Source: a virus
DNA: 19,042 nucleotides
Virus genome (UHGV): UHGV-1351768
Reading direction: 5' to 3' (one strand)
The position numbers were made by a program, and so were the translations under genes. Positions 1-19,042 of this stretch are shown piece by piece. Under the pieces are notes generated by a model. That model searched no databases. It worked only from the letters and a program-made list of their open reading frames with translations, and was not told where the DNA came from. How positions within the stretch are numbered: position 1 is the stretch's first letter; each line of letters opens with the position of its first letter.

Positions 1-294
1 AGGCACAGATACCGTCTCTGGAGGGGCGGCGTAAAGCGGAGTTACGGTAATTTCGTACTCGTTTATATCCTCGTCGCTGATATTTGCGAAATAGCGAAGG
101 ATGCCTTTCTCTCCACGACTACGAGCGTCAGAGTCCTGAATGATATACGCCACAGGCTCTGCTTCCAGCGATGCCAGCGCAATCCGTGCCAGTTCTTCCG
201 CTTCTTCTGCTGGCAGTACAACGTTGCTACCAGGTCCGTATGTTTCGCGCCACTGCTTGATTGTCAGTAGTCGCTCTTTGGTAATAGTGATCAT
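1..294 (-). CDS. hypothetical phage early protein, partial (3' end lies beyond window start; 98 N-terminal codons present)
   Basis: Minus-strand reading frame from ATG at 294..292 (MITITKERLLTIKQWRETYGPGSNVVLPAEE...) with no stop before coordinate 1. Its ATG overlaps the stop of the upstream gene (ATGA junction). Absent from the ORF track because it is incomplete. Confidence 0.45.
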   Translation of the reverse strand, partial: MITITKERLLTIKQWRETYGPGSNVVLPAEEAEELARIALASLEAEPVAYIIQDSDARSRGEKGILRYFANISDEDINEYEITVTPLYAAPPETVSVP

Positions 295-2017: not shown

Positions 2018-2500
2018 TTATTTGATAAGAAGTGAAGGTTTCCCAACTTTGAGTTGAGCGCCTGGGATATTTATTCCTGCTTTTAGTTGGTGCTTGATTG
2101 CCAACTTGTCGGCTTTAATTGTCGTTTCGAACTCAACGTATTCAGGAGGAAGGGCGCTTGAGTCGATGATTTCTACAGTTTCTGACGGTTTGCGGATTGT
2201 TACCTGGTGAATACCTGCTCGAATATTTTTCTTGCCAACCATTTCAAGCGATGACGCTATATATGATTTGATGCTGTCAATCTTATTTTGAATTACTGCG
2301 GCTCGCTCATTTAGTGACTTTGCCTCTTCCTTGAGGCGCTCAGCATAACCAGATTCATTTTTGATGACGGAAAGAAGTTGCTCTATTTTATCGGTAAATT
2401 CTCCTTCCATGCCTTCTATTGTGTCAGCAATCATCTCTGGCTCTAAATCTGAATCCATCAATTTTGCGTATTCATTGGCTATTTCATACAGTTTGCTCAC
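2018..2500 (-). CDS. Siphovirus Gp157-family protein (recombination-module accessory protein), about 160 aa
   Basis: ORF 2018..2506; preferred start is GTG at 2500..2498 with SD GGAGG and 6-nt spacer. Sequence pattern LYEI..EY...EAI.GE...LKEEAK.L.ERA...IRKP.ETVEI.D...LPPEY...KLAIK..LKAG..IPGA matches my memory of the Gp157 family, which typically sits next to RecT/Sak genes. Confidence 0.6.
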   Translation of the reverse strand: MSKLYEIANEYAKLMDSDLEPEMIADTIEGMEGEFTDKIEQLLSVIKNESGYAERLKEEAKSLNERAAVIQNKIDSIKSYIASSLEMVGKKNIRAGIHQVTIRKPSETVEIIDSSALPPEYVEFETTIKADKLAIKHQLKAGINIPGAQLKVGKPSLLIK

Positions 2501-3387
2501 TGGCAACCTCCAGTTTCGCTTTGCATTCTATGTAAATGGCTTGTACGTTCTGCTGCAATTTCATTCCAGATGTCAGGCGATATGCTTCTGCAAAATATCG
2601 CTTCAAATCATCCATGTTTTCTGCCTGAGCCATTTCATCACAAAGAAGTTGTGCTTTTTCCATTATTTCCTGCTGGCGTTTCCGTTCATCTTCGCGGATA
2701 TCTTCCTCTGATTTGTGCGGCATAACTGGTTCCTGATGCATACCTTCATCTTCGTTAAGCAGGTGAATGGCATTATCCAGTCGCTGGGCTTTAGGCCAGT
2801 ATTTGCTGGCGCGTTTAACTATTGTTTTACGCGCCATCTCTTCCCAGAATGTTTTCCACGGTCCATTCTTTGCCTTGCTCGTTGCTTCCACAGCTTTAAT
2901 TTCTGCCAGACTCATTTCTTCAGTCAGGTAGTCACCATCTGCTGTTTTAACCGTGCAATAACCTCCAACAATAGAGCCTCGCTCACCAAATGCGTTGTAT
3001 TTGTGGGTTGGTGCTGAATCAAGGCCATTTGATTCATAGGTGTCGTTTGAGTACACCAGTTTGCATTGCCCCCACTTAATTGATCCTGTCGATTGTGCAA
3101 GATGAAGTAATCCCATGTAACTGATATCAAGGCACACCATGCCGTCGCGAGGAACCAGATAAGCCAGTTTGCTGGCCGGGTTTAAGGTGATGCCGATCGC
3201 CGCAACGTTGATGATAGCGTTCTGTGCGCGTGGTCGGATTTGCCAGTGCCGTTTTAGCCAGGTAATCATTTTTCTGGAAATACTGAATTGCAAACTGGCT
3301 TTCCTTAGCCCATGTCACCGTCTGTTCAGTCAATGCTCCGCAGAATAACTGCTCCTGCTGTTTAACGAATTCAACGATATTGCTCAT
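2484..3387 (-). pseudogene. recT: RecT-family single-strand annealing recombinase, interrupted by an apparent +1 frameshift (or sequencing indel) near 3225-3235
   Basis: C-terminal 247 codons in ORF 2484..3293 contain the RecT core (NGPWKTFWEEMARKTIVKRASKYWP, compare E. coli RecT NGPWVTHWEEMAKKTAIRRLFKYLP). The N-terminal 56 codons lie in a different frame (ORF 3127..3387, ATG at 3387 overlapping the upstream stop) and align with the RecT N-terminus (..KTALANPTT). The two frames can be joined by removing one base in ccgaccacgcgcacag (minus strand). Confidence 0.6.
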
Positions 3388-3947: not shown

Positions 3948-4022
3948 AGGATGCTCCTTCTGTTTGATTGCATAACGAAAACGCCTCGAGTGAAGCGTTA
4001 TTGGTATGCGGTAAAGCCGCGC

Positions 4023-4501: not shown

Positions 4502-4771
4502 TTAATCAGCAATAAAATCTTCTGGTAATTTATCAACCAGTTGATGGCTTATTATCAGCCATTTGCCATCCTTCGTTCCGTATGCGTATTTCTGGTCTTT
4601 TATCATCAGGTGTTCAGCTACTGCCTTAACTGCCTGTTCGGTGACATCTTCTTTCTTTCCTACCCACATTCCTTTTTCAGTGTTTAATGTTCCTTGAAAA
4701 ATACGACCGCTTAATGGGCTTGCGCCCATGGTTTTAATTTCATATAGCACCTTAAAAATAAAGGCCACCAT
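4502..4771 (-). CDS. hypothetical phage early protein, 89 aa
   Basis: Complete ORF; ATG at 4771..4769 overlaps the stop of the upstream IS1-interrupted gene (TGATG). Confidence 0.45.
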   Translation of the reverse strand: MVAFIFKVLYEIKTMGASPLSGRIFQGTLNTEKGMWVGKKEDVTEQAVKAVAEHLMIKDQKYAYGTKDGKWLIISHQLVDKLPEDFIAD

Positions 4772-5058
4772 CAGGCAGCCTTGTTGTAAATGTTGCAGGT
4801 ATCAAGTAAGTAATTAGATGGAGCGCCATAAATTATGAATTCATCGTTTGTCGGGTCCATCTCCATCTCTTGGCCTATTGCCATTCTTGCGTCAGTGTCG
4901 TCAGCGGCGAAGCATAAAACAGCCCACGCCCCCATTGTTTTAAAAAGAACTGCAATTGGCTGTGGTTTTACTGAATTTGCGTTAGCGCGAAAATCATAAA
5001 TCGGGTAATGCTGCCAACTTACTGATTTAGTGTATGATGGTGATTTTAAGGTGCTTGC

Positions 5059-5334
5059 GTGGCTTCCATTTCCATCAGATGTCCTTCCTGCTCCGCTACT
5101 GAAGGCGTGGTGCGTAACGGCAAAAGCACTGCCGGACATCAGCGCTATCTCTGCTCTCATTGCCGTAAAACATGGCAACTACAGTTCACTTACACCGCCT
5201 CTCAGCACGATAAGCACCAGAAAATCATTGATATGGCCATGAATGGCGTCGGATGTCGCGCCAGTGCACGCATTATGGGCGTTGGCCTCAACACGGTTTT
5301 ACGTCACTTAAAAAACTCAGGCCGCAGTCGGTAA
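5059..5334 (+). CDS. insA: IS1 InsA (transposition inhibitor / N-terminal part of the InsAB' transposase), 91 aa
   Basis: ORF-track protein [43 protein letters not shown]... matches IS1 InsA; correct size and position within the element. Confidence 0.9.
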
Positions 5335-5756
5335 CCTCGCGCATACAGCCGGGCAGTGACGTCATCGTCTGCGCGGAAATGGACGAACAGTGGGGCTACG
5401 TCGGTGCTAAATCACGTCAGCGCTGGCTGTTTTACGCGTATGACAGGATACGGAGGACAGTTGTGGCGCACGTTTTCGGTGAACGCACTCTGGCCACACT
5501 GGAGCGTCTTCTGAGCCTGCTGTCGGCCTTTGAGGTCGTGGTATGGATGACGGATGGCTGGCCGCTGTATGAATCACGCCTGAAGGGAAAGCTGCACGTT
5601 ATCAGCAAGCGTTACACTCAGCGCATTGAGCGACATAATCTGAATCTGAGACAACATCTGGCAAGGCTGGGACGGAAGTCGCTGTCGTTCTCAAAATCGG
5701 TGGAGCTGCATGACAAGGTCATCGGGCATTATCTGAACATAAAACACTATCAGTAA
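5253..5756 (+). CDS. insB: IS1 InsB reading frame, 167 aa (expressed as InsAB' by -1 frameshift at the A6C motif near 5310..5316)
   Basis: ORF-track protein ...[22 protein letters not shown]...[52 protein letters not shown]... matches IS1 InsB; slippery TTAAAAAACTC is present in the insA/insB overlap. Confidence 0.85.
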
Positions 5757-5801
5757 GTTGGAGTCATTACCATAAATCGCACTTTCATGAAATCCCATAT
5801 A

Positions 5802-6134: not shown

Positions 6135-6306
6135 CTGGATTCTCCTGTCAGTTAGCTTTGGTGGTGTGGTAGGTGGGAGACCCATTTCGACCTGCTTCGG
6201 CCGACTTCAATTCGGCAATAGTTCCGCAGGCCTCGCCGCTTTACGTGCGACATATTCCCATCCATGAACCCTTCACCACACCCCAAAGCCTTCTGCTTTG
6301 AATGCT

Positions 6307-6337
6307 GCCCTTCTTCAGGGCTTAATTTTTAAGAGCA
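6307..6337 (-). promoter_or_regulatory. nutL (boxB GCCCTGAAGAAGGGC at 6307..6321, boxA-like TGCTCTTAA at 6329..6337, read on the minus strand)
   Basis: Reverse complement reads TGCTCTTAAAAATTAAGCCCTGAAGAAGGGC, matching the lambda nutL boxA/boxB arrangement in the N leader. Confidence 0.75.
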
Positions 6338-6381
6338 TCACCTTCATGGTGGTTAGTGCGTCCTGCTGATGGCTTAAAATT

Positions 6382-6449
6382 ACAATAAAGATTGTATGCT
6401 GTAAACAAGAAATATTGTAAAAAGGGGCGTGAAAAACAAACTCCATTGT
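6382..6449 (-). promoter_or_regulatory. OL operator region with pL: three 14-bp ACAA-N6-TTGT operators of 434 type
   Basis: ACAATAAAGATTGT at 6382..6395, ACAAGAAATATTGT at 6405..6418 and ACAAACTCCATTGT at 6436..6449; these share the ACAA...TTGT half-sites of the OR operators. A -35-like TTTACA is on the minus strand between them. The exact pL hexamers are not resolved. Confidence 0.65.
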
Positions 6450-6499
6450 TTTTAAACGGAAAATAGTTTGTTTTTTGGTTATCGAAATCGAGGTGAGGA

Positions 6500-7852
<1,353 letters not shown>

Positions 7853-7860
7853 GACATTCC

Positions 7861-7892
7861 CGCTCTTACACATCCCCGCCCTGAAAAAGGGC
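7861..7892 (+). promoter_or_regulatory. nutR (boxA CGCTCTTACA 7861..7870, boxB GCCCTGAAAAAGGGC 7878..7892)
   Basis: Canonical lambda-type boxA and boxB hairpin immediately downstream of cro. Confidence 0.8.
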
Positions 7893-7968
7893 ATTACCAG
7901 AAAAAAATCTCTATGGTTTTGCGTTTCTTTGCGAAGCCAACTCTATCTAATCATTAAGGAAATTATCT

Positions 7969-8250
7969 ATGGGTACTATTGCAACTAAAAGCAAGAAAGC
8001 GGCTCGCATCGAGTCAGCCTTGCTGAACAAACTGGCACTGATGGGGCAGAAGACATTCGCTCGAGCGATGGGGGTTCCTGAATATCAGGTAAGCCGATGG
8101 AAGAATGGTTTCTTCTCGCAGGTAAGCATGATGCTGGCTGTTCTGGAATACGGAATCGAAGACGATGAAATGGCTGAGCTGACTAAGCGGCTTGCCAATT
8201 ACCTGACAAAAGAAAAAGCCCCGAAGAACGGCGAATTCTTCGAGGCCTGA
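7969..8250 (+). CDS. cII: CII-like transcriptional activator, 93 aa
   Basis: SD AAGGAA before ATG at 7969. Motifs ARIESALLNKLALMG...SRWK...MLAVLEYG..DDEMAEL parallel lambda CII (ALRIESALLNKIAMLG...SRWK...MLLAVLEWG). Confidence 0.8.
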   Translation: MGTIATKSKKAARIESALLNKLALMGQKTFARAMGVPEYQVSRWKNGFFSQVSMMLAVLEYGIEDDEMAELTKRLANYLTKEKAPKNGEFFEA

Positions 8251-8284
8251 TGTAGAAAGACTGGATCAATCCACAGGAGTAATT

Positions 8285-8446
8285 ATGACAAAACGTCGTA
8301 AGAAATACCAGGAAAAAGAAGAGATTCGACACCCTGATTCACCTGAGGGATTAGTGGTAGCCGCAGCAAATAACAGGGCGTTCGCAGAGCGCCTTGTTGG
8401 TGTTTACAGACTAGCCAAAGCAGGAGTGAAACATGGGCGTCGTTAA
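8285..8446 (+). CDS. micro-ORF, 53 aa, basic (MTKRRKKYQEKEEIRHPDSPEGLVVAAANNRAFAERLVGVYRLAKAGVKHGRR)
   Basis: SD AGGAG 6 nt before ATG at 8285. Lies between cII and the replication initiator; its 3' end overlaps the 5' extension of the O-like ORF. Below the ORF-track cut-off. Confidence 0.3.
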   Translation: MTKRRKKYQEKEEIRHPDSPEGLVVAAANNRAFAERLVGVYRLAKAGVKHGRR

Positions 8447-8495
8447 GTTAGCTGATTACAGGCATAACCCTGTACAACATCAGGAGGCATCCAGT

Positions 8496-9323
8496 ATGGG
8501 GTATGTCTCTATACACCGCCAGTTTATGGACAGCAGGCTCTATAAGGACTCTCAGGCAGTACATCTTTGGCTTCACTTAATCCTCAAGGCTAATCACGAA
8601 TCTACTGTCGTCAATACGGATATTGGGCCGATAACTGTTGATCGCGGTCAGATGATAACTGGACGCCCGTCGCTGGTCAGAGAAACATTCATCCCCGACA
8701 ACAAAGTTCGGAGCTTATTACGGACTTTTGAGTCGAAAGGGATGCTTAATATTTGCTCGATGGGGAAGAAATTTAGCCTGTTTACAATCGTTAAATATGA
8801 CGATTTTCAGGCAAAAAATTGTCCAACGGTTGTCCAACAGTTGTCCAACGCAAACACCAGTAATGGTGCGGCTCTCAGCGGAGATTGTCCAACGGTTGTC
8901 CAACGGTTGTCCATAAACAATAATATAAATAATATCTCTAATACTGACGTATTAGAGAGTGCCACAGCAGACAAAAAGTCTGACAAGAAAAAACCTTCCG
9001 TCAGCTGTCAGGATGTTGTCGATGCTTACCACGAAATCCTTCCTGAAGCGCCAAGAATCCGCGCACTGAATGACAAGCGTAAAAACCAGATCCGAACGTT
9101 CTGGCGCAAAGCCGGAGTGATAACCCGCCAGCTTGACGGGCATGGGTTCACGATGCAGGACTGGAGAAATTATTTGAGCTACGTAGGCGAAAATTGCCGA
9201 TGGATGTTCGAAGAGCGCCCAAACCATCAGCGCGGAACCGTCTGGCACAAAAAGGGATTTGATTTCCTGCTTAACGATAATACCTACCTGAAAGTTCGTG
9301 AGGGTGAACACGATGACCGATAA
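8496..9323 (+). CDS. replication initiator / replisome organiser (O-like, non-lambda type) containing the iteron origin; 275 aa (alternative start at 8433)
   Basis: ORF 8433..9323; ATG at 8496 has the strongest SD (AGGAGG, 8-nt spacer) and begins MGYVSIHRQF..., resembling the N-terminus of phage replisome-organiser proteins. Iterons are embedded in the coding sequence; the next gene is a DnaB-type helicase. Confidence 0.7.
   Translation: MGYVSIHRQFMDSRLYKDSQAVHLWLHLILKANHESTVVNTDIGPITVDRGQMITGRPSLVRETFIPDNKVRSLLRTFESKGMLNICSMGKKFSLFTIVKYDDFQAKNCPTVVQQLSNANTSNGAALSGDCPTVVQRLSINNNINNISNTDVLESATADKKSDKKKPSVSCQDVVDAYHEILPEAPRIRALNDKRKNQIRTFWRKAGVITRQLDGHGFTMQDWRNYLSYVGENCRWMFEERPNHQRGTVWHKKGFDFLLNDNTYLKVREGEHDDR
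8818..8945. repeat. origin of replication: five and a half TTGTCCAAC(N)G iterons in two blocks (8818..8850 and 8884..8914) followed by an AT-rich tract (8915..8945)
   Basis: Direct repeats ttgtccaacgg/ttgtccaacag/ttgtccaacgc, then ttgtccaacgg x2 and ttgtccata, then aacaataatataaataatatctctaatactg. This is the classic lambdoid iteron-plus-AT-rich origin architecture inside the initiator gene. Confidence 0.75.
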
Positions 9324-10749
9324 TTTTTATGCGCCGCCCCATAGCATCGAGGCAGAGCAGGCGGTGATTGGTGGATTGCTTCTGGATGATGACAGCAGTG
9401 AGCGCGTCCGGAAAGTTCTGGCGATGCTGAAGCCTGATTCATTTTACAGCCGACCACACAAAATCCTTTTCGAAGAAATAACCAGAATGCACCGGGAGCA
9501 AAAGCCAGTAGATGGGCTGACGCTTTTCGATGAACTGGAGCGCAAATCGTTAACGGCGTCTGTTGGCGGTTTTGCTTATATCGCTGAGATCGCAAAGAAC
9601 ACGCCAAGCGCAGCAAACATCGTTGCCTATGCAATGCAGGTTCGTGAAACCGCAATGGAACGCTACGCCATCAACCGCATGACTGAAGCGACGGAATTGC
9701 TCTATTCCCGCAACGGAATGACTGCAACACAGAAGTACGAAGCTATTCAGTCGATTTTCACGCAACTGACAGACCATGCAAAAACCGGATCGCGTCGCGG
9801 CCTTCGCTCATTTGGTGAGGTCATGGAAGACTGGGTTAGCGACCTTGAGAAGCGATTTGACCCGTCAGGCGAACAACGAGGAATGAGCACAGGGATCCCA
9901 TCGCTGGACAGGATGCTGTCACCGAAAGGTCTGGTGAAAGGCTCTCTGTTTGTCATTGGCGCTCGCCCTAAGATGGGGAAAACGACGCTATACAGCCAGA
10001 TGGCAATCAACTGCGCAGTGCATGAGAAAAAGCCAGCTCTGATGTTCAGCCTTGAAATGCCCGGTGACCAGATACTGGAAAAACTGGTAGGACAGAAGTC
10101 AGGTGTTAACCCGAATATTTTTTACCTTCCGGCGACAAATGACGCTGATGACGGCTATCAGGGTGATTACGATGGTGACTTCAATAGGGCGATCGAAACA
10201 GCCAATCGCTTGAGTGAAATCGACCTGCTTTACATCGACGACACGCCGGGATTATCTCTGGCTCAAATCGTCAGCGAAAGCCGTCGAATCAAGCGGGAAA
10301 AAGGATGTGTTGGCATGATTCTGGTCGATTACCTGACACTAATGACCGCTGAAAAGGCCGATCGCAACGACCTTGCATACGGCATGATCACCAAAGGACT
10401 GAAGAACCTTGCCAAAGAGCTTGATTGCGTTGTTGTGCTTCTGACACAGCTTAATCGCGCATTGGAAAGCCGAACCAATAAACGCCCATTACCAAGTGAC
10501 TCGCGCGATACAGGGCAGATTGAACAGGATTGCGATTATTGGGTGGGGATCCATCGTGAAGGCGCTTTTGATGACAGTGTTCCACCTGGTGAAACCGAAC
10601 TAATCCTTCGCCTCAATCGTCATGGCAATACCGGCACGGTGTATTGCATTCAGGCAAATGGCGCTATTTATGACACAGACCAACAGTCTGCTGAAATGCG
10701 CCGACGTGAACGCGAGGAACCGCAGTCCAAGAAGAAAGGAGGATTCTGA
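9313..10749 (+). CDS. replicative DNA helicase, DnaB family (P22 gp12-like), 478 aa
   Basis: ORF 9298..10749; ATG at 9313 preceded by GAGGGTG. Contains Walker A GARPKMGKTT, Walker B-like ILVDYLTLM and N-terminal DnaB-like region (EAEQAVIGGLLLD). Confidence 0.85.
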   Translation: MTDNFYAPPHSIEAEQAVIGGLLLDDDSSERVRKVLAMLKPDSFYSRPHKILFEEITRMHREQKPVDGLTLFDELERKSLTASVGGFAYIAEIAKNTPSAANIVAYAMQVRETAMERYAINRMTEATELLYSRNGMTATQKYEAIQSIFTQLTDHAKTGSRRGLRSFGEVMEDWVSDLEKRFDPSGEQRGMSTGIPSLDRMLSPKGLVKGSLFVIGARPKMGKTTLYSQMAINCAVHEKKPALMFSLEMPGDQILEKLVGQKSGVNPNIFYLPATNDADDGYQGDYDGDFNRAIETANRLSEIDLLYIDDTPGLSLAQIVSESRRIKREKGCVGMILVDYLTLMTAEKADRNDLAYGMITKGLKNLAKELDCVVVLLTQLNRALESRTNKRPLPSDSRDTGQIEQDCDYWVGIHREGAFDDSVPPGETELILRLNRHGNTGTVYCIQANGAIYDTDQQSAEMRRREREEPQSKKKGGF

Positions 10750-10829
10750 TGACCATCTACATCACTGAGCTTGTAACAGGCCTGCTGGTAATCGCAGGCC
10801 TTTTTATTTGGGGGAGAGGGAAGTCATGA
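10749..10829 (+). CDS. possible 26-aa hydrophobic micro-protein ([26 protein letters not shown]), in the position occupied by ren in lambda
   Basis: ATG overlaps the helicase stop (TGATG) and its stop overlaps the ninB ATG (ATGA), but a terminator-like hairpin lies inside it. It may be non-coding. Confidence 0.2.
   Translation: MTIYITELVTGLLVIAGLFIWGRGKS
10779..10809 (+). terminator. Rho-independent terminator (tR2-like) between the helicase gene and ninB
   Basis: Stem GGCCTGC (10779..10785) / GCAGGCC (10794..10800), 8-nt loop, followed by TTTTTATTT (10801..10809). Confidence 0.6.
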
Positions 10830-11266
10830 AAAAACTAACCTTTGAAATTCGATCTCCAGCACATCAGCAAAACGCTATTCACGCAGTACAGCAAATCCTT
10901 CCAGACCCAACCAAACCAATCGTAGTAACCATTCAGGAGCGCAACCGCAGCTTAGACCAGAATCGAAAGCTTTGGGCTTGCCTTGGTGACGTTTCTCGTC
11001 AGGTTGAATGGCATGGTCGCTGGCTGGATGCAGAAAGCTGGAAGTGTGTGTTTACCGCAGCCTTAAAGCAGCAGGACGTTGTTCCCAACCTTGCCGGGAA
11101 TGGCTTTGTGGTAATAGGCCAGTCAACCAGCAGGATGCGTGTAAGCGAATTTGCGGAGCTATTAGAGCTTATACAGGCATTCGGTACAGAGCGTGGCGTT
11201 AAGTGGTCAGACGAAGCGCGACTGGCTCTCGAATGGAAAGCGCGATGGGGAGACAGGGCGGCATGA
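10826..11266 (+). CDS. ninB: NinB (Orf family recombination mediator), 146 aa
   Basis: ORF 10808..11266 trimmed to ATG at 10826 (SD GGGGGAGAGGG). Sequence [55 protein letters not shown]... matches lambda NinB as I remember it. Confidence 0.9.
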
Positions 11267-11445
11267 GACGACAGCGACGAAGTTTCACCGACATCATCTG
11301 CGAAAACTGCAAATACCTTCCAACGAAGCGCTCCAGAAATAAACGCAAGCCAATCCCAAAAGAATCTGACGTAAAAACCTTCAATTACACGGCTCACCTG
11401 TGGGATATCCGGTGGCTTAGAGAACGTGCGAGGAAAACAAGGTGA
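11263..11445 (+). CDS. ninE: NinE-like protein, 60 aa
   Basis: ATG at 11263 overlaps the ninB stop (ATGA). [60 protein letters not shown] resembles the lambda nin-region 60-aa protein. Confidence 0.8.
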
Positions 11446-11612
11446 TTGACCCAAATCGAAGTTACGAACAAGAAAGCGTCGAGCGGGCTTTAACGTGCGC
11501 TAACTGCGGTCAGAAACTGCATGTGCTGGAAGTTCACGTGTGCTCCGATTGCTGCGCAGAACTGATGAGCGATCCGAATAGCTCAATGTACGAGGAAGAA
11601 GACGATGAATGA
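11442..11612 (+). CDS. ninF: NinF-like Cys-rich protein, 56 aa
   Basis: GTG at 11442 overlaps the ninE stop (GTGA), with [63 protein letters not shown] matches lambda NinF with a few substitutions (from memory). Confidence 0.75.
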
Positions 11613-12327
11613 GTTAATAAATGGCAATGCCATCAAAATGACAAGCATTGAAATCGCTGAGTTGGTGGGTAAGCGTCATGACAATGTGAAACGTACCATC
11701 GAAACGCTGGCTAAAAATGGTGTTATCCGGCTTCCTCAAATTGAGGTTTCCGAAAGAATCAATAACTTAGGGTTCAATGTTCAGTACGAGCATTACGTCT
11801 TCGAGGGCGAACAAGGTAAGCGAGACAGTATTGTCGTTGTTGCCCAGTTGTCGCCAGAGTTCACCGCTCGCCTTGTTGACCGCTGGCGAGAGCTTGAAGA
11901 AGCTGCGGTTAATATCCCCAAAACGCTACCGGAAGCGTTGCGCCTTGCTGCCGATCTTGCTGAGCAGAAAATGCAACTGGAAAACCAGCTCGCAATTGTC
12001 GCACCTAAAGTTGAGTTTGCCGATCGCGTTGGCGAGGCCAGCGGAATTTTGATTGGAAACTTTGCAAAGGTTGTTGGTATTGGTCAAAACAAACTGTTTG
12101 CGTGGATGCGTGATCACAAAATCCTTATTGCTTCAGGTTCCCGGCGCAATGTGCCAATGCAGGAATATATGGATCGCGGCTATTTCACAGTGAAAGAAAC
12201 AGCGGTCAACACAAATCACGGAATACAGATATCGTTCACCACAAAAATCACCGGGCGCGGTCAACAGTGGCTGACCAGAAAGTTGCTCGATAACGGAATG
12301 CTGAAAGTAACAGGGGAGGCTGCTTAA
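11605..12327 (+). CDS. phage antirepressor-type protein: Rha-like N-terminal domain plus KilA-C (ANT) C-terminal domain, 240 aa
   Basis: N-terminus SIEIAELVGKRHDNVKRTIETL matches the Rha/antirepressor N-domain signature. C-terminal region (PKVEFADRV...GNFAKVVGIGQNKLFAWMRDHKIL...RGYFTVKE) matches the KilA-C pattern. Start overlaps the ninF stop. Confidence 0.75.
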   Translation: MNELINGNAIKMTSIEIAELVGKRHDNVKRTIETLAKNGVIRLPQIEVSERINNLGFNVQYEHYVFEGEQGKRDSIVVVAQLSPEFTARLVDRWRELEEAAVNIPKTLPEALRLAADLAEQKMQLENQLAIVAPKVEFADRVGEASGILIGNFAKVVGIGQNKLFAWMRDHKILIASGSRRNVPMQEYMDRGYFTVKETAVNTNHGIQISFTTKITGRGQQWLTRKLLDNGMLKVTGEAA

Positions 12328-12617
12328 TGGCTAACCTACGCAAAGAAGCACGCGGCAGAGAATGCCTGGTACGTATTTACGGCGTATGCAATGGCAATCC
12401 TGAAACTACAGTTCTGGCACATTACCGGATGGCTGGAATTTGCGGAACGGGAATGAAGCCTGACGACCTGATCGGTGCATGGGCTTGTAGTGCGTGTCAC
12501 GATGAAATCGACCGACGCACCCATAATCTCGACAACAAAGACGCCAGACTTTACCACCTCGAAGGCGTGATCAGAACGCAGGCGATACTGCTGAGGGAGG
12601 GGAAGATTAAGTCATGA
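12327..12617 (+). CDS. DUF1364 / YbcO-like small Cys-His protein (putative nuclease), 96 aa
   Basis: ATG at 12327 overlaps the preceding stop (TAATG). Cys/His-rich (CLVRIYGVCNG...CSACHDEIDRR). Lies immediately upstream of rusA, as ybcO does in DLP12-type nin regions. Confidence 0.65.
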   Translation: MANLRKEARGRECLVRIYGVCNGNPETTVLAHYRMAGICGTGMKPDDLIGAWACSACHDEIDRRTHNLDNKDARLYHLEGVIRTQAILLREGKIKS

Positions 12618-12976
12618 ACGAATATCAGTTTGTGCTTCCATACCCGCCGTCGGTGAATACCTACTGGCGAAGACGGGGAAGCCAATATTACATAAGCGAT
12701 AAAGGCCAGAAATACCGAAAAGACGTTCAGCAAATCATCCGCCAACTCAAGTTAGACATTTTCACCAAATCACGACTCCGTATCAAAGTCATCGCAGACG
12801 TTCCAGACTCCCGCCGCCGCGACCTCGACAACATCCTGAAAGGTTTACTCGACTCCCTTATCCACGCCGGATTTGCGGAAGACGACGAGCAATTCGATGA
12901 CATTCGCGTAATTCGTGGTGTGAAAGTACCAGGCGGACGGCTTGGAATAAAAATCACCGAACTGGAGAACGCATGA
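12614..12976 (+). CDS. rusA: RusA Holliday-junction resolvase, 120 aa
   Basis: MNEYQFVLPYPPSVNTYWRRRG...DVPDSRRRDLDNILKGLLDSLIHAGF..DDEQFDDIRVIRG...GGRLGIKITELEN parallels E. coli RusA (..PDRRRRDLDN..K...DAL..AGF..DD.Q......V......GGRLE..ITEM); same 120-aa length. Confidence 0.88.
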   Translation: MNEYQFVLPYPPSVNTYWRRRGSQYYISDKGQKYRKDVQQIIRQLKLDIFTKSRLRIKVIADVPDSRRRDLDNILKGLLDSLIHAGFAEDDEQFDDIRVIRGVKVPGGRLGIKITELENA

Positions 12977-13161
12977 ACGCCACAATTCAAACGATACCAG
13001 AGCTTCTTATCCAGACACGAGGCAATCAGACCGAAGTGGCAAGGATGCTTTCCTGCGCAAGAGGAACAGTGCTCAAGTACAACCGAGACAGCAAAGGCGA
13101 GCGTCACGTAATAGTTAACGGCGTCCTGATGGTCAAACAGGGCAAGAGGGGAAGACGATGA
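12973..13161 (+). CDS. ninH: NinH-like protein, 62 aa
   Basis: IPELLIQTRGNQTEVARMLSCARGTVLKYNRDSKGERHVIVNGVLMV parallels lambda NinH (IPDMLVEAYGNQTEVARRLKCSRGTVRKYVDDKDGKMHAIVNDVLMV). Start overlaps the rusA stop. Confidence 0.78.
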   Translation: MNATIQTIPELLIQTRGNQTEVARMLSCARGTVLKYNRDSKGERHVIVNGVLMVKQGKRGRR

Positions 13162-13780
13162 GACTCGAAAGCGTAGCTAAATTTCATTCGCCAAAAAGCC
13201 CGATGATGAGCGACTCACCACGGGCTACGGCTTCTGACTCTCTTTCCGGTACTGATGTGATGGCTGCTATGGGGATGGCGCAATCACAAGCCGGATTCGG
13301 CATGGCTGCATTCTGTGGTAAGCACGAACTCAGCCAGAACGACAAACAAAAGGCTATCAACTATCTGATGCAATTTGCACACAAGGTATCGGGGAAATAC
13401 CGTGGTGTGGCAAAGCTCGAAGGAAATACTAAGGCAAAGGTACTGCAAGTGCTCGCAACATTCGCTTATGCGGATTATTGCCGTAGTGCCGCGACGCCGG
13501 GCGCAAGATGCAGAGATTGCCACGGTACAGGCCGTGCGGTTGATATAGCAAAAACAGAGCAGTGGGGAGAGTTGTTGAGAAAGAGTGCGGAAGATGCAAA
13601 GGCGTCGGCTATTCAAGAATGCCTGCAAGCGCCGCATATCGCGCTGTAACGATGCTAATCCCAAACCTTACCCAACCCACCTGGTCACGCACTGTTAAGC
13701 CGCTGTATGACGCTCTGGTGGTGCAATGCCACAAAGAAGAGTCAATCGCAGACAACATTTTGAATGCGGTCACACGTTAG
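13158..13780 (+). pseudogene. Q: late antiterminator Q (lambda type) with a 1-bp indel in a G-run (GGGG at 13564..13567) that splits the gene into ORFs 13158..13649 and 13562..13780
   Basis: Frame 1 encodes MRLESVAKFHSPKSP...CRDCHGTGRAVDIAKTEQWG, then nonsense. Frame +1 continues VVEKECGRCKGVGYSRMPASAAYRAVTMLIPNLTQPTWSRTVKPLYDALVVQCHKEESIADNILNAVTR. Together they reconstitute a 207-aa Q with its CxxC...CxxC zinc finger; adding one G restores ...ELWGRVVEKEC. Confidence 0.75.
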
Positions 13781-13822
13781 CAGCATGATTGCCACGGATG
13801 GCAACATATTAACGGCATGATA

Positions 13823-13851
13823 TTGACTTTTTGAATAAACTTGGGTAAATT
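13823..13851 (+). promoter_or_regulatory. late promoter pR' (-35 TTGACT 13823..13828, 17-bp spacer, -10 TAAATT 13846..13851) with adjacent Q-utilisation (qut) region
   Basis: TTGACTTTTTGAATAAACTTGGGTAAATTTGACCCAAC closely matches my memory of lambda pR'. It lies directly downstream of Q. Confidence 0.75.
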
Positions 13852-13857
13852 TGACCC

Positions 13858-14050
13858 AACGATGGGTTAATTCGCTCGTTGTGGTAGTGAGATAAAAAGA
13901 GGCGGCGCTTACTACCGATTCCGCCTAGTTGGTCACTTCGACGTATCGTCTGGAACTCCAACCATCGCAGGCTGAGAGGTCTGCAAAATGCAATCCCGAA
14001 ACAGTTCGAAGGTAATAGTTAGAGCCTGCACAACGGTTTCGGGATTTTTT
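13858..14050 (+). ncRNA. 6S-type late leader transcript (pR' start to tR'), about 193 nt
   Basis: The predicted start about 7 nt after the -10 and the terminator end at 14050 give about 193 nt, consistent with the 194-nt lambda 6S RNA. Boundaries are inferred, not measured. Confidence 0.5.
13992..14050 (+). terminator. tR' Rho-independent terminator
   Basis: 11-bp stem AATCCCGAAAC (13992..14002) / GTTTCGGGATT (14036..14046) enclosing a 33-nt loop, followed by a T-run to 14050. Confidence 0.65.
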
Positions 14051-14601
14051 ATATCTGCACAACAGGTAAGAGCATTAAAGAACTGGCAAAGAGCTTAACG
14101 GTCTGCGAAAGCATTTCTTAGTGGCACAACTGGCCGGTACAACTGAGTGCTCTTTCCGGTGTGGTGAATGCGCAGGCTGATGCGCGCAGGAGAGCTTCGG
14201 AAGAACAAGGTGCCTGTATACAAGCCGGAGATCAGCGCCGGCCACCACAGCCAAATCCACCCAGAGCAAAACCGTTGTTCATCCTTACCATTCCCTCAGT
14301 ATTTTGGACTACAACCCTCAGCCCATTTTTTAAAGCGTACTTCCACCAAGAACTAGACCTAACCAACTCATTGCTGACACTCTGTGGATACGGTTGTCTA
14401 GTGCGCTTTAAAAAGAAAACCCAGCATCAATGGCTGGGCTTCGTGATATGAGCGGCATGTATTGTTGGCGCAATCCACGCCTGATTTGCTCATGAATGCG
14501 GTCACGAACAAACCCGTTACAAATCAACCGTAACCCGGATTTGTTCAAGCGACCATATCCATAATTCCTAATTTGAACAGATCCCCTTCTGGGGGTAAGA
14601 C

Positions 14602-14925
14602 ATGAAGATGCCAGAAAAACATGACCTGTTAGCTGCCATTCTCGCGGCAAAGGAACAAGGCATCGGGGCAATCCTTGCGTTTGCAATGGCGTACCTTCGC
14701 GGCAGATATAATGGCGGTGCGTTTACAAAAACAGTAATCGACGCAACGATGTGCGCCATTATCGCCTGGTTCATTCGTGACCTTCTCGACTTCGCCGGAC
14801 TAAGTAGCAATCTCGCTTATATAACGAGCGTGTTCATCGGCTATATCGGCACTGACTCGATTGGTTCGCTTATCAAACGCTTCGCTGCTAAAAAAGCCGG
14901 AGTAGAAGATGGTGGAAATCAATAA
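14602..14925 (+). CDS. S: holin S (class I; S107/S105 dual-start motif MKMPEK), 107 aa
   Basis: Protein [107 protein letters not shown] is essentially lambda S. Confidence 0.93.
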
Positions 14926-15385
14926 TCAACGTAAGGCATTCCTCGATATGCTGGCGTGGTCGGAGGGAACTGATAACGGACGTCAGAAAACCAGAAATCA
15001 TGGTTATGACGTCATTGTTGGCGGAGAGCTATTCACTGATTACTCCGATCACCCTCGCAAACTTGTCACGCTAAACCCCAAACTCAAATCAACAGCAGCC
15101 GGACGTTACCAGCTTCTTTCCCGTTGGTGGGATGCCTATCGTAAGCAGCTTGGCCTGAAAGACTTCTCTCCGAAAAGCCAGGACGCTGTGGCACTGCAAC
15201 AGATTAAGGAACGTGGCGCTTTACCGATGATTGATCGCGGTGATATCCGTCAGGCAATCGACCGTTGCAGCAATATCTGGGCTTCACTGCCGGGGGCTGG
15301 TTACGGTCAGTTCGAGCATAAGGTTGACAGCCTGATTGCAAAATTCAAAGAAGCTGGCGGAACGGTCAGAGAGATTGAGGTATGA
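14909..15385 (+). CDS. R: endolysin R (lytic transglycosylase), 158 aa
   Basis: [83 protein letters not shown]... matches lambda R; it overlaps the end of S as in lambda. Confidence 0.93.
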
Positions 15386-15849
15386 GCAGAGTCACCGCGA
15401 TTATCTCCGCTCTGGTTATCTGCATCATCGTCTGCCTGTCATGGGCTGTTAATCATTACCGTGATAACGCCATGACCTACAAAGAGCAGCGCGATAACAA
15501 GGCCAGTGAACTGGAGAAGGCGAACGCCACCATTACTGACATGCAGCAGCGCCAGCGTGATGCTGATGCACTCGATGCTAAATACACGAAGGAGTTAGCT
15601 GATGCGAAAGCTGAAAATGATGCTCTTCGGCGCAAGCTTGATAATGGTGGCAGGGTGCTCGTCAAAGGAAAATGCCCTGTGCCATCCTCAGACGAAACCT
15701 CCAGCGCCTCCGGCATGGGCAATGATGCCACCGTCGAACTCTCTCCAGTTGCTGGACGAAACGTTCTCGGTGTCCGGGACGGAATTATCCGCGACCAAAC
15801 AGCACTGAGAACGCTTCAGGAATACATCAGGACGCAATGCCTTCGATGA
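15382..15849 (+). CDS. Rz: spanin inner-membrane subunit Rz, 155 aa
   Basis: N-terminus [30 protein letters not shown] and coiled-coil region match lambda Rz; C-terminal half is diverged. Start overlaps the R stop. Confidence 0.82.
15602..15808 (+). CDS. Rz1: spanin outer-membrane lipoprotein subunit Rz1 (embedded in the +1 frame of Rz), 68 aa
   Basis: [19 protein letters not shown] (lipobox VAGC) followed by the Pro-rich PPAPPAW; SD AAGGAG before ATG at 15602. Same embedded arrangement as lambda Rz1. Confidence 0.72.
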
Positions 15850-16022
15850 TAGCGATAATTCTACTCATCATCCTTCACATCTGGCTCTGTAGACAGGGTG
15901 ATGATCACTTCTGGAGTGAATCCAGATTAAACATCTCATTGCTGATGCTTGATATTGAGCATCTGGCGCGCGGTAAGGGGCTGCGTTGAGATAAGAGCCA
16001 GTCATCACAAACACCAGGATTT

Positions 16023-16047
16023 AGCCCCGCATTCGCGGGGCTTTTTA
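16023..16047 (+). terminator. Rho-independent terminator downstream of the lysis cassette
   Basis: Stem AGCCCCGC (16023..16030) / GCGGGGCT (16035..16042), 4-nt loop ATTC, followed by TTTTT. Confidence 0.65.
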
Positions 16048-16190
16048 TATCTGAATTTCACAGCGCATCTCACGCGCATATTAACGAGAGCCTTTCAGTA
16101 AGCGAGCCTGAGAAATGCCGTTATAGGTGGCGACCTCTCTCGGGCGGCTTTTCTGTGAGACAGGCTCACTTTCTAAAAGGTAAAGACGCT

Positions 16191-16715
16191 ATGAATAATC
16201 ATTCAGTTATTCCAGCCTTCGACTTCCGAGAAATGGTGCAAGCCAAAAACGGAGAGGTCGTTACCACATCCAGAAAAATTGCCAAGTACTTCGGCAAGCG
16301 ACACGGTGATGTTCTCAGGAAAATCGAGCAGGTTAAGGCTGATTGCTCGCGTGAGTTTAGCCAACGCAATTTTGCGTCGGCTGATTATATCGATGAGCAG
16401 GGCAAGGTTCGCCCGATGTACAGCCTGACGAAAGATGGCTGGATCATGGTTGTGATGGGGTTCACCGGGAAAGCTGCTGCGGCAATCAAGGAGAGCTATA
16501 TCGCAGCATTCAACTGGATGGCAGAGCAACTGAGCCGCCGCATGGCAATTGGCGAAGAAATGCAGCACCGCTACGCCATCAAAGAAACACGCTCAAAGCT
16601 GAAAGGTACGATCGGCAGTCGGTTAATGAACGAACGGAAGAAAGAGAAGCGTGTCCTGGCTGTCGAGCATGAATACATCTTGCAGGTGACGCAGCCCGAA
16701 TTGCTGATTAATTGA
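16191..16715 (+). CDS. rha: Rha-family phage regulatory protein, 174 aa
   Basis: ORF 16155..16715 trimmed to ATG at 16191. Motifs TTSRKIAKYFGKRHGDVLRKIEQ...SREFSQRNF...YIDEQGKVRPMYSLTKDGWIMVVMGFTGKAAAAIKESYIAAFNWM match my memory of the Rha family signature. Confidence 0.68.
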   Translation: MNNHSVIPAFDFREMVQAKNGEVVTTSRKIAKYFGKRHGDVLRKIEQVKADCSREFSQRNFASADYIDEQGKVRPMYSLTKDGWIMVVMGFTGKAAAAIKESYIAAFNWMAEQLSRRMAIGEEMQHRYAIKETRSKLKGTIGSRLMNERKKEKRVLAVEHEYILQVTQPELLIN

Positions 16716-17015
16716 AGATGCCATCACAAAGCCCATCTACGGGTGGGCTTGATAATGAAACCGGAATTTATTCTGGGCAACCAATTAACGGCAGTACAGC
16801 GAAACAACCCAAGCCAGTAAGTGGGGAAATAACACTGGCAGCCACTGAAAGATGAACCTCCTGCCTTATGGCAAAAAAGATTCTTTGTGGTGGCGGACTG
16901 ATGGAAAGACATCGGTTATTGCAGAGACCATTCAATGAGTGGTCTCGACAATGGCTTATACCCTACACGGGATAACTTAACTGATATCCCTTTTAACGGA
17001 TAAACGGAGCCAACA

Positions 17016-17258
17016 ATGGCAGAGATTATTCCCATGACTGAAGAACAGAAATTCCAGTTAGAGATTTACAAACTGGTCATGAACCAGAACGCAGCCGCAG
17101 AGGAAGCATTTCAGTTCATTGGCACTGACGAACTGAAGCTTGAGCTATTCAAAATTCACTTCCAGTCAGGCGGCGCTAATTCGGATATCACGATCCGCAC
17201 ATTCGAAGCGGTGCGTAAATCTAAGGAAGCGTTAGACCTGTTCACTACCGGAGCATGA
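17016..17258 (+). CDS. hypothetical protein, 80 aa
   Basis: Complete ORF with GGAG 7 nt upstream of ATG at 17016; immediately precedes the terminase small subunit. Confidence 0.4.
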   Translation: MAEIIPMTEEQKFQLEIYKLVMNQNAAAEEAFQFIGTDELKLELFKIHFQSGGANSDITIRTFEAVRKSKEALDLFTTGA

Positions 17259-17287
17259 TGCTCAACCTGAAATAACAACTAAGTGAG

Positions 17288-17783
17288 ATGAATATGGCAG
17301 CACCAAAGGGCAACCGATTTTGGGAGGCCCGCAGTAGTCATGGGCGAAACCCTAAATTCGAATCGCCTGAGGCGCTGTGGGCTGCTTGTTGTGAATACTT
17401 CGAGTGGGCTGATGATAACCCGCTATGGGAGGGTAAGGTATTTTCATATCAGGGAGAAATAATTAAGGCTAATGTCCCTAAGATGCGAGCCATGACTATT
17501 TCAGGATTGTGTACCTTCCTTGATATCACCAGGCAAACATGGGGGAACCTTTCGGTCAATGGAAGGTTTTTCTGACGTCACATCACGAGCGGAAGACATC
17601 ATCTACGACCAGAAATTCTCTGGCGCAGCCGCTGACCTTCTCAACGCTAACATCATCGCCCGTGATTTGGGCCTCAAAGAGCAGTCGCAAGTTGAAGACG
17701 TGACACCTGATAAGGGAGATCGCGATAAGCGACGCTCTCGTATCAAGGAGCTATTCAACCGTGGAACTGGACGCGATTCTTGA
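17288..17783 (+). pseudogene. terminase small subunit with a 1-bp indel in a G5 run (17541..17545) that splits it into ORFs 17288..17575 and 17520..17783
   Basis: Frame 1: [49 protein letters not shown]...[17 protein letters not shown]. Frame 2: [45 protein letters not shown]... Removing one G gives a continuous ...[27 protein letters not shown], matching the TerS pattern (..TW....F.DVT.RAE.IIY.QKF.GAA..LLNANII.RDLGL). Confidence 0.65.
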
Positions 17784-19042
17784 TAACCTGAGCGACGAAG
17801 AGCAAATCGAATTGCTCGAGCTACTCGAAGAAGAAGAGAACTACCGAAACACACACCTGCTATATGAATTTACGCCATACAACAAACAGCGTGAGTTCAT
17901 CGACGCCGGACATGACTATCCAGAGCGATGTTTTATGGCTGGTAACCAGCTTGGTAAGTCATTTACTGGTGCTGCCGAAGTCGCGTTTCACCTTACCGGG
18001 CGTTATCCGGGAACAAAAGGATATCCGGCTGATGGTAAATATGGCGGAGAGTGGAAAGGTAAGCGTTTCTATGAGCCTGTTGTTTTCTGGATTGGCGGCG
18101 AGACAAACGAGACGGTAACCAAAACGACTCAACGCATCCTGTGCGGTCGTATCGAAGAGAATGATGAGCCTGGCTACGGTTCCATACCGAAAGAGGACAT
18201 CATTAGCTGGAAGAAGTCTCCTTTCTTTCCGAATCTTGTTGATCACCTTCTGGTTAAGCATCACACGGCTGATGGCGTTGAAGATGGCATTTCAATCTGC
18301 TACTTCAAACCATACTCGCAAGGCCGTGCTCGCTGGCAGGGTGACACAATCCACGGCGTGTGGTTTGACGAAGAGCCACCATACAGCATTTATGGCGAAG
18401 GTCTTACCCGTACCAACAAATACGGTCAATTCTCAATTCTGACGTTTACCCCGCTGATGGGGATGTCTGACGTTGTTACCAAGTTCCAGAAGAATCCCAG
18501 CAAGTCGCAGAAAGTGGTCAACATGACCATCTATGACGCTGAGCACTATACCGACGAGCAGAAAGAGCAAATCATCGCATCCTATCCAGAGCATGAGAGA
18601 GAGGCGCGTGCTCGCGGTATTCCTACGATGGGTAGTGGTCGAATCTTCCAGATACCGGAAGAGACGATTAAGTGTCAGCCGTTCGAGTGTCCTGATCACT
18701 TCTACGTAATTGGCGGGATGGATTTCGGATGGGATCACCCACAGGCGCAGGTTCAGCTTTGGTGGGATAAGGATGCAGACACAATCTACGTTTCACGCGT
18801 GTGGAAGGCGAAAGAAAAACAGCCGTTCAGGCGTGGGGAGCAGTTAAATCATGGGCGCATAAAGTGCCAACCGCATGGCCTCATGACGGAAACCAGCACG
18901 AGAAGGGCGGCGGTGAGCAGCTTAAAGGGCAGTACGCGGAAGCTGGTTTTATGATGTTGCAGGAGCATGCGACATGGCCTGATGGCGGTAATGCTGTTGA
19001 GCCTGGCATCACTGAATTGCGCGACATGATGCTTGATGGTCT
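17761..19042 (+). pseudogene. terminase large subunit (ATPase Walker A GNQLGKS), frameshifted at an A5 run (18815..18819) and continuing in the -1 frame beyond the window end
   Basis: ORF 17761..18954 (GTG start, SD AAGGAG) ends in nonsense after ...VWKAKEK. The alternative frame from about 18819 is open to 19042 and reads ...TAVQAWGAVKSWAHKVPTAWPHDGNQHEKGGGEQLKGQYAEAGFMMLQEHATWPDGGNAVEPGITELRDMMLDG. Adding one A joins the frames. The 397-aa as-read product is short for a large terminase. Confidence 0.65.

What the first reader, a model, noticed from the sequence alone, without database searches (positions are those of the whole stretch)
13558..13570. Antiterminator Q disrupted by a 1-bp indel in a G-run
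Q is essential for late gene expression. As read, the zinc finger is split: CRDCHGTG lies in frame 1 and CGRCKGVGY in frame +1, joined through GGGG at 13564..13567. If real, the prophage cannot activate lysis and morphogenesis genes from pR' and is defective; if it is a homopolymer sequencing error, the phage may be fully inducible. The promoter, qut region and terminator are intact.
Basis: seen in the sequence. Interest (0 to 1): 0.5.

Follow-up and report, generated by a model that had tools for sequence, protein, structure and literature searches.

The report
Lambda Q gene, probable one-base sequencing error
The prophage's late-gene switch (lambda-type antiterminator Q) is split by one missing G in this record, but an independent assembly of essentially the same prophage has the G and an intact gene, so the break is most likely a sequencing or assembly error and the locus is otherwise ordinary.

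Summary
Window 13158..13780 is a lambda-type Q gene; with one G restored it is 206/207 identical to lambda Q. The run at 13564-13567 has four G where lambda, phage Dewey, the 60 best of about 1,230 full-length matches among complete E. coli genomes, and 130 of 134 fetched Q loci have five (or are one base longer). As recorded, translation gives 137 native residues, 26 aberrant ones and a stop. This separates the zinc ligands Cys118/121 from Cys144/147 and removes the helix-turn-helix and C-terminus.

The break is private to this record. A 14.4-kb contig assembled from run ERR975216 matches window 5-14414 with zero substitutions and shares the IS1 insertion and a rare T-run variant. It differs by only three one-base indels, one being this G-run, where it has G5 and an intact 207-aa Q. 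Three Shigella sonnei assemblies that are 99.96% identical over 11 kb also have G5. All four other public G4 cases lie in indel-ridden assemblies. The window carries three more private one-base frameshifts (RecT, TerS, TerL). Each is repairable by one base; for Q, TerS and RecT the repaired protein is an exact match to a common intact protein.

Best reading: a homopolymer consensus error (about 0.7). Rival: a very recent private mutation (about 0.25). Nothing here is novel.

The parts
13158..13780 (+). Lambda-type antiterminator Q gene, full extent (207 codons if one G is restored)
   Evidence: 97% DNA identity to lambda Q. The repaired protein is 206/207 identical to PDB 7UBM chain Q. Pfam PF03589 Antiterm.
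13564..13567 (+). G4 run where relatives have G5; the site of the 1-bp deletion
   Evidence: Alignments. 130 of 134 fetched Q loci have G5.
13158..13649 (+). ORF as recorded: 137 native Q residues, then 26 out-of-frame residues, then a stop (163 aa)
13565..13780 (+). Q codons 137-207 in the -1 frame. This part holds Cys144, Cys147, the rest of the zinc ribbon, the helix-turn-helix and the C-terminal helix
   Evidence: Domain boundaries are from PMC9388147.
13823..13851 (+). pR' late promoter: -35 TTGACT, 17-nt spacer, -10 TAAATT
   Evidence: The hexamers are identical to lambda's in alignment A2.
13829..13849 (+). Q-binding element (qut) TTTTGAATAAACTTGGGTAAA. It has 2 mismatches to lambda and is identical to S. 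sonnei L129
   Evidence: The lambda reference string comes from the mEp235 annotation listed.
13992..14052 (+). tR' intrinsic terminator (end of the 6S RNA): hairpin plus U-run
   Evidence: RNA fold of -21.3 kcal/mol, z = -4.1. The stem arms and the U-run are identical to lambda's; two substitutions fall in the internal/loop part.
14602..15849 (+). Late lysis cassette S (14602..14925), R (14909..15385) and Rz (15382..15849): the first genes that depend on Q
   Evidence: The exact Rz protein is named only in S. sonnei records.

Best explanation
The locus is an ordinary lambda-type Q antiterminator gene in a lambdoid/P22-like mosaic prophage of the Shigella sonnei / E. coli group. It sits between ninH and pR'-qut-tR'-S-R-Rz. 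The missing G at 13564-13567 is most likely a homopolymer-length error in the consensus of this particular record. On that reading the true sequence has G5 and encodes an intact 207-aa Q.

Intact Q would work as lambda Q does. It binds the QBE at pR' through its helix-turn-helix and zinc-ribbon arm. It loads onto the sigma-dependent paused RNA polymerase. Together with NusA it forms a nozzle at the RNA-exit channel, which lets polymerase read through tR' into the lysis and morphogenesis genes. That mechanism is taken from PMC9388147 and was not tested here.

What is shown: the G4 is in the record; it is absent from every near-identical copy; and the record has other private one-base indels. 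What is inferred: that the cause is sequencing or assembly rather than biology.
For: (1) Logan contig ERR975216_26 (L154) matches window 5-14414 with 0 substitutions. It shares the IS1 insertion and the rare T3 variant at 4738. It differs only by three 1-bp indels: 3187, 3230 and the Q G-run, where it has G5 and a 207-aa Q. Differences that are all indels and no substitutions are not what biological divergence looks like.

(2) Three S. sonnei assemblies (L129, L130, L131) are 99.96% identical over 11.1-11.6 kb, one of them with the same IS1, and all have G5 and an intact Q. Most of the few differences from the window are homopolymer-length changes.

(3) About 1,230 complete E. coli genomes carry this Q at full length, and the 60 best hits are all one base longer than the window. 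An exact 48-nt G4 probe finds only 2 genomes.

(4) All four other public G4 cases sit in indel-ridden assemblies. ET479 has 14 'frameshifted' CDS in 28 kb. A28 has 9. VOFI01001699.1 has 40 gaps in 5.3 kb against lambda. ERR10497706 has 3 homopolymer deletions in 3.5 kb.

(5) The window has three further private 1-bp frameshifts, in RecT (3230), TerS (G4 to G5 at about 17541-17545) and TerL (A6 to A5 at about 18815).

(6) Repairing each lesion by one base gives a full-length ORF. The repaired Q, TerS and RecT are exact matches to proteins seen on at least 1,000, at least 1,000 and 356 contigs respectively. The truncated TerS, TerL and RecT products are on record nowhere.
Against: No raw reads of the source record were available, so an error is inferred rather than seen. 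I could not show that ERR975216 is the same isolate as the source. It could be a sister isolate, in which case G4 could be a genuine, very recent mutation. L154 itself has one private indel (3187), so it is not an error-free reference. Plus-or-minus-one indels in short homopolymers are also the commonest natural frameshifts. This prophage carries a real IS1 insertion, so some genuine decay is under way. I found no same-lineage comparator for the TerS and TerL lesions.
Confidence: 0.7

Rival explanations
1. The G4 is a genuine, very recent mutation private to the sequenced isolate: slipped-strand loss of one G. Q is then a null allele, made of 137 native residues plus a 26-residue nonsense tail. 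It lacks Cys144 and Cys147, the helix-turn-helix and the C-terminal RNAP contacts. Transcription from pR' stops at tR', and the lysis and morphogenesis genes stay off. The prophage is locked in as a defective element.
For: The frameshift is unambiguous in the record. Truncation at the arm tip removes elements that the lambda Q structures show to be needed for QBE and RNAP binding (PMC9388147). The prophage shows genuine decay: an IS1 insertion with a target-site duplication, shared by independent assemblies. Losing a lethal late-gene switch could be selectively favoured in a lysogen (general knowledge).
Against: The allele is absent from every near-identical copy (L129, L130, L131, L154). There are zero substitutions against three indels over 14.4 kb. 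Three more clean one-base frameshifts occur in the same 19 kb, with no amino-acid change beyond each shift in the three genes where this could be checked. All other G4 records are error-prone assemblies.
Confidence: 0.25
2. The G-run is functional. Either it is a programmed -1 ribosomal frameshift or transcriptional slippage site that yields some full-length Q from a G4 template, or it is a phase-variable contingency tract that switches prophage late genes ON and OFF.
For: Full-length Q needs a -1 shift exactly at UGG GGA. A Gly-tRNA on GGA could re-pair with GGG (inference). G4 recurs in several unrelated sequence backgrounds.
Against: There is no X XXY YYZ slippery heptamer in the zero frame (CAG UGG GGA GAG). 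G4/G5 is far shorter than known slippage or phase-variation tracts (general knowledge). 130 of 134 loci have G5, and every G4 lies in an assembly with many other indels. I did not look for a stimulatory structure downstream.
Confidence: 0.03

Closest known systems
Bacteriophage lambda Q antiterminator (Q-lambda; Pfam PF03589; PDB 4MO1, 7UBJ-7UBN) with its pR'-QBE-tR' cassette
   Same: The repaired protein is 206/207 identical to lambda Q, the only change being L135Q. It has the same four Cys (118, 121, 144, 147) and the same gene order ninH-Q-pR'-tR'-S-R-Rz. The pR' hexamers are identical and the tR' hairpin is conserved.
   Different: One G is missing in the record. The QBE has 2 mismatches to lambda, both shared with the S. 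sonnei copies and one with phage Dewey. The 0.4 kb between tR' and S is unrelated to lambda's. The neighbouring nin region (Roi/KilAC, YbcO, RusA) and the P22-type terminase genes are mosaic and not lambda-like.
The same prophage in Shigella sonnei assemblies GCA_026142765.1, GCA_026141485.1, GCA_001292545.1 and in run ERR975216
   Same: 99.96-99.98% DNA identity over 11-14 kb. GCA_001292545.1 and ERR975216 have the same IS1 insertion. The exact Rz protein is shared.
   Different: All of them have G5 and a 207-aa Q. ERR975216 lacks the window's extra G at 3230 and has its own 1-bp deletion at 3187. L129 and L130 lack the IS1, carry a gp49 gene that is absent from the window, and have different (mosaic) terminase alleles.
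Frameshifted genes in error-prone long-read or homopolymer-sensitive assemblies (for example E. coli ET479 and A28 in RefSeq)
   Same: The same G5-to-G4 change in Q, accompanied by several other one-base frameshifts in neighbouring prophage genes.
   Different: The density in the window is lower: 4 broken genes in 19 kb, against 9-14 in 28 kb. One of the window's lesions (3230) is not in a homopolymer.

Membership tests
Lambda-type Q antiterminator (PF03589, Q-lambda) | Full-length sequence homology to lambda Q | tested here: met
   With one G restored, 206/207 identical to 7UBM chain Q, E = 1.8e-138. As recorded, the homology is split over two frames.
Lambda-type Q antiterminator (PF03589, Q-lambda) | Pfam PF03589 match above the gathering score | tested here: met
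   Repaired Q scores 192.3 bits, the N-terminal fragment 104.7 and the C-terminal fragment 78.1, against a cut-off of 26.7.
Lambda-type Q antiterminator (PF03589, Q-lambda) | Contiguous zinc ribbon (residues 114-152) with four Cys ligands in one polypeptide | tested here: not met
   As recorded, Cys118/121 lie in ORF 13158..13649 and Cys144/147 in the -1 frame. The feature is met only after restoring one G, as in L129 and L154.
Lambda-type Q antiterminator (PF03589, Q-lambda) | Cognate cis elements directly downstream: pR' promoter, overlapping QBE, and tR' terminator ahead of the lysis genes | tested here: met
   -35 TTGACT and -10 TAAATT. The QBE matches lambda at 19 of 21 positions. The tR' hairpin folds at -21.3 kcal/mol. 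S, R and Rz follow.
Lambda-type Q antiterminator (PF03589, Q-lambda) | Antitermination activity at tR' | not testable with these tools
   Needs in vivo or in vitro transcription read-through assays.
Programmed -1 ribosomal frameshift site | Slippery heptamer X XXY YYZ in the zero frame | tested here: not met
   The zero-frame codons are CAG UGG GGA GAG; no heptamer fits.
Programmed -1 ribosomal frameshift site | The two-frame arrangement is conserved in relatives | tested here: not met
   130 of 134 Q loci are single-frame (G5), and the 4 G4 cases are in indel-ridden assemblies.
Phase-variable homopolymer (contingency locus) | A long tract (typically 7 or more) with length variation among close relatives in accurate assemblies | tested here: not met
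   The tract is 4-5 G. The near-identical copies L129, L130, L131 and L154 all have G5.

The most novel reading that the evidence does not exclude
The G5 run at the tip of the Q zinc-ribbon arm is a genuine mutational hot spot. It recurrently and reversibly switches lambdoid prophages between inducible and locked-in states, acting as a low-frequency ON/OFF switch for late genes. On this reading, the window captures a natural OFF variant.
Probability: 0.03. Interest if true: 0.45.

Novelty: already known. Interest (0 to 1): 0.08.

Why it matters
Biologically it matters little. This is lambda Q itself, one of the best-understood regulators, in a common mosaic prophage, and frameshifted prophage genes are routine.

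The practical value concerns annotation. Calling this prophage 'defective because Q is broken' from this record alone would probably be wrong, because near-identical copies have an intact Q. The case also shows that the G5 run in lambda-type Q is a recurrent site of homopolymer under-calling: every other public G4 found here is in an indel-ridden assembly. Q 'pseudogenes' at this position should therefore be checked against reads before they are used to score prophage viability.

Tried and rejected
(1) Finding the source record. No complete E. coli genome matches better than 96.6% over 73% of the window. The G4 pattern is absent from the GTDB representative genomes and from IMG/VR. The source was not identified; only near-identical S. 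sonnei copies were.

I replaced it with a window-derived pattern next to the run. This gave 120 viral loci, and all 94 that fit the strict flank pattern have G5.

(3) Looking for same-lineage comparators for the TerS and TerL lesions. DUF2560 and N are too widespread and returned only mosaic relatives. The best TerS/TerL relatives are 97.6% identical. Whether these two lesions are private therefore rests only on the absence of the truncated products from the gene index.

(4) The TerL query began with V (GTG start) and so was invalid. The corrected look-up with M also found nothing.

(5) A literature search for ERR975216 found nothing, so the sequencing platform and strain of that run are unknown.

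(6) Programmed frameshifting and phase variation were considered and rejected: no slippery heptamer, a short tract, and no conservation.

(7) A possible tRNA cluster between Q and S, as in E. coli MLI121: none is present.

Full report
**Observation**

The window carries GGGG at 13564-13567. ORF 13158..13649 (163 aa) begins MRLESVAKFHSP... and contains CRDCHGTG. ORF 13562..13780 (72 aa) contains CGRCKGVGYSR... and runs to ...NAVTR. Megablast to phage records gives 97-98% identity to the Q genes of lambda, HK630, Dewey, phiv205-1 and many others. A base-level alignment shows TGGGGGAGA in lambda and Dewey and TGGGGAGA in the window, with no other indel in the gene. tblastn with an intact Q places residues 1-142 in frame 3 and residues 131-207 in frame 2. 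The only correction is that the C-terminal part is in the -1 (equivalently +2) frame relative to the N-terminal part, not +1.

**What the gene is**

With one G restored, the product is 207 aa and 206/207 identical to lambda Q in PDB 7UBM/7UBN; the single difference is L135Q. It also matches 4MO1 and 7UBJ-L. It matches Pfam PF03589 at 192 bits.

Cysteines lie at 53, 108, 118, 121, 144, 147 and 191. As recorded, 137 native residues are followed by 26 aberrant residues and a stop. According to PMC9388147, the Q-lambda arm is a zinc ribbon spanning residues 114-152, and its tip (133-137) contacts sigma region 4. The body comprises residues 61-113 and 153-207 and holds the helix-turn-helix (H4/H5). 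C-terminal residues 195-207 refold and contact RNA polymerase.

The frameshift falls exactly at the arm tip. If it were real, it would remove two of the four presumed zinc ligands, the DNA-binding helix-turn-helix and the C-terminal polymerase contacts. That would be a null allele.

**Cis elements**

The pR' promoter is present at 13823-13851 (TTGACT, 17-nt spacer, TAAATT). Alignment with lambda, Dewey and an S. sonnei copy shows identical hexamers. The Q-binding element has 2 mismatches to lambda, is identical to the S. sonnei copy, and shares one of the two changes with the phage isolate Dewey. The initial transcribed region is conserved, and so is the tR' hairpin with its U-run. The hairpin folds at -21.3 kcal/mol, z = -4.1. 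S, R and Rz follow at 14602-15849.

**How common is G4?**

- About 1,230 of 5,426 complete E. coli genomes carry this Q at full length. The 60 best hits all span 627 bases against the window's 626.
- A 48-nt probe was designed so that only a G4 allele can seed a megablast hit. It finds just two genomes, ET479 and A28.
- In ET479, 14 of 51 CDS around Q are annotated 'frameshifted'. In A28, 9 of 45 are.
- The G4 pattern, with degenerate flanks, is absent from the GTDB representative genomes and from IMG/VR.
- It occurs once in the metagenome collection, in VOFI01001699.1. That contig is lambda DNA with 40 gaps in 5.3 kb.
- The exact 163-aa truncated product is on record in one further contig, Logan ERR10497706_996. 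That contig has three homopolymer deletions in 3.5 kb relative to all relatives.
- Among all the loci fetched, 130 have G5 and 4 have G4, and these 4 are the cases just listed.

Every other public G4 is therefore embedded in an indel-ridden assembly.

**Near-identical copies**

The window's exact Rz protein is named only in Shigella sonnei records. Fetching its contigs gave three S. sonnei assemblies with the same gene order, each with a 207-aa Q.

- Over 11,145 nt, L129 and L130 differ from the window by 2 substitutions and 2 one-base deletions in the window: the Q G-run and an A6-to-A5 change at 14410. They also differ at T4-to-T3 at 4738.
- L131 has the same IS1 insertion as the window. Over 11,645 nt it differs only at the Q G-run, at an A-run redistribution at 14410-14416, and at a G3/G2 site at 16903.
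- L132, a Logan contig from run ERR975216, is 100% identical to window 14417-17341.

The window's odd 89-aa DUF7446 variant, caused by T3 at 4738, exists on one public contig only. That contig is ERR975216_26 (L154, 14,409 nt). It aligns to window 5-14414 with zero substitutions and three one-base indels:

| Site | Window | L154 | Odd one out |
|---|---|---|---|
| 3187 | GG | G | L154 (every intact RecT agrees with the window) |
| 3230 | extra G | no extra G | window (every relative lacks it) |
| Q G-run | G4 | G5 | window (every relative has G5) |

L154 shares the IS1 and the T3 variant, so it is the same lineage and possibly the same strain. Its Q is intact.

**Other lesions in the window**

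Relative to all relatives, three more genes are frame-split:

- RecT (2484..3387, minus strand) has an extra base at 3230.
- The small terminase TerS (17294..17783) has G5 at about 17541-17545 where relatives have G4.
- The large terminase TerL (from 17761) has A5 at about 18815-18819 where relatives have A6, and it stops at 18954.

Removing or adding one base restores a full-length ORF in each case. The repaired Q, TerS and RecT are exact matches to public proteins seen on at least 1,000, at least 1,000 and 356 contigs respectively. The truncated TerS, TerL and RecT products are on record nowhere.

So the record contains four clean one-base frameshifts in 19 kb, three of them in homopolymers. 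In the three genes where it could be checked, there is no secondary damage.

**Interpretation**

The following points together fit consensus errors of a homopolymer-sensitive or indel-prone sequencing or assembly process much better than biological divergence:

- The differences from an otherwise identical independent assembly are indels only, with no substitutions.
- The window is the outlier at the Q site against every relative.
- The same G5-to-G4 change recurs exclusively in demonstrably noisy assemblies.
- Several other 'one base from perfect' genes lie in the same record.

In real divergence, substitutions normally outnumber indels several-fold (general knowledge). I therefore put about 0.7 on an artefact, meaning the true sequence is G5 and Q is intact.

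I cannot exclude a genuine, very recent isolate-private mutation, and give it about 0.25. No reads of the source were available. ERR975216 may be a sister isolate rather than the same strain. L154 has its own private indel. The prophage also does show real decay in the form of the IS1 insertion.

A programmed frameshift or a phase-variable tract is very unlikely (about 0.03). There is no X XXY YYZ heptamer in CAG UGG GGA GAG, the tract is short, and the two-frame arrangement is not conserved.

Even with an intact Q, 'fully inducible' does not follow from this record. IS1 (5004..5771) has terminal inverted repeats and an 8-9-bp target duplication, ATAAATCG. It interrupts the 83-aa ORF just downstream of N in the pL operon. 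It is confirmed by two independent assemblies. TerS and TerL are also broken in the record, and whether those breaks are real is unresolved.

**Novelty**

There is none. This is lambda Q in a common mosaic prophage with a probable consensus error. Its practical value is as a caution for prophage-viability calls based on Q 'pseudogenes' at this G-run.

Noticed in passing
window 5004..5771 (target duplication at 4996..5003 and 5772..5779): A complete 768-bp IS1F-like element with intact InsA (91 aa) and InsB (167 aa) ORFs. It is inserted about 23 nt into the 83-aa ORF immediately downstream of N in the pL operon. It is present in S. sonnei L131 and in ERR975216 (L154), and absent from L129 and L130. 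It is a rare IS1 variant: only 32 of 9,598 matching E. coli records reach 99% identity. It is probably polar on the early-left genes.
   Followed up: partly
window 2484..3387 (-), sites 3187 and 3230: RecT is frame-split by an extra G at 3230 that no relative has. The otherwise identical ERR975216 contig lacks that G but has its own 1-bp deletion 43 nt away, at 3187. The two assemblies therefore break RecT at different places. At least one of them must be wrong, or the true sequence carries neither change or both.
   Followed up: partly
window 17294..17783 (+), G-run about 17541..17545: The small terminase (P22 gp3-type) is split into 17294..17575 and 17544..17783 by one extra G (G5 against G4 in all relatives). 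The one-base repair gives a 162-aa protein that is an exact match to a protein seen on at least 1,000 public contigs.
   Followed up: partly
window 17761..19042 (+), A-run about 18815..18819: The large terminase is truncated at 18954 by loss of one A (A5 against A6 in relatives). With the A restored, the ORF stays open to the window end. The 397-aa truncated product is on record nowhere.
   Followed up: partly
window 4738 (T-run) in ORF 4502..4771 (-): T3 instead of T4 just after the start codon of the DUF7446 gene. This replaces its N-terminus, giving 89 aa from an upstream ATG instead of 80 aa. The variant is shared with the ERR975216 contig and is otherwise unique in the protein collection, so it appears to be a real lineage marker.
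   Followed up: yes
window 14410..14419, next to a minus-strand terminator-like hairpin at 14416..14442: The A-run lengths differ among near-identical copies: the window has A5-G-A4, L129 and L130 have A6-G-A4, and L131 has A6-G-A3. The two ERR975216 contigs break exactly here (L154 ends at 14414 and L132 starts at 14417).
   Followed up: no
window 16913..16937: About 0.4 kb carrying the gp49-family gene of L129 and L130 is absent from the window. ERR975216 contig L132 agrees with the window here, so this is a real deletion or a mosaic junction.
   Followed up: partly
window 14076..14485: The segment between tR' and the S holin gene is unrelated to lambda's. It lacks the tRNA-Asn/tRNA-Thr pair found at this position in E. 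coli MLI121, and ARAGORN finds no tRNA anywhere in the window.
   Followed up: partly
window 1..5 and contig L154: The ERR975216 contig ends 4 nt from the window's first base. This suggests that the window is itself a whole assembled contig, bounded by the same repeat edge, rather than a slice of a finished chromosome.
   Followed up: no
L004 (E. coli ET479), L005 (E. coli A28), L008 (VOFI01001699.1), L007 (Logan ERR10497706): These public records carry the same G5-to-G4 change in Q together with many other one-base indels. L008 is lambda DNA with 40 gaps in 5.3 kb. The Q G-run looks like a recurrent site of homopolymer under-calling.
   Followed up: yes
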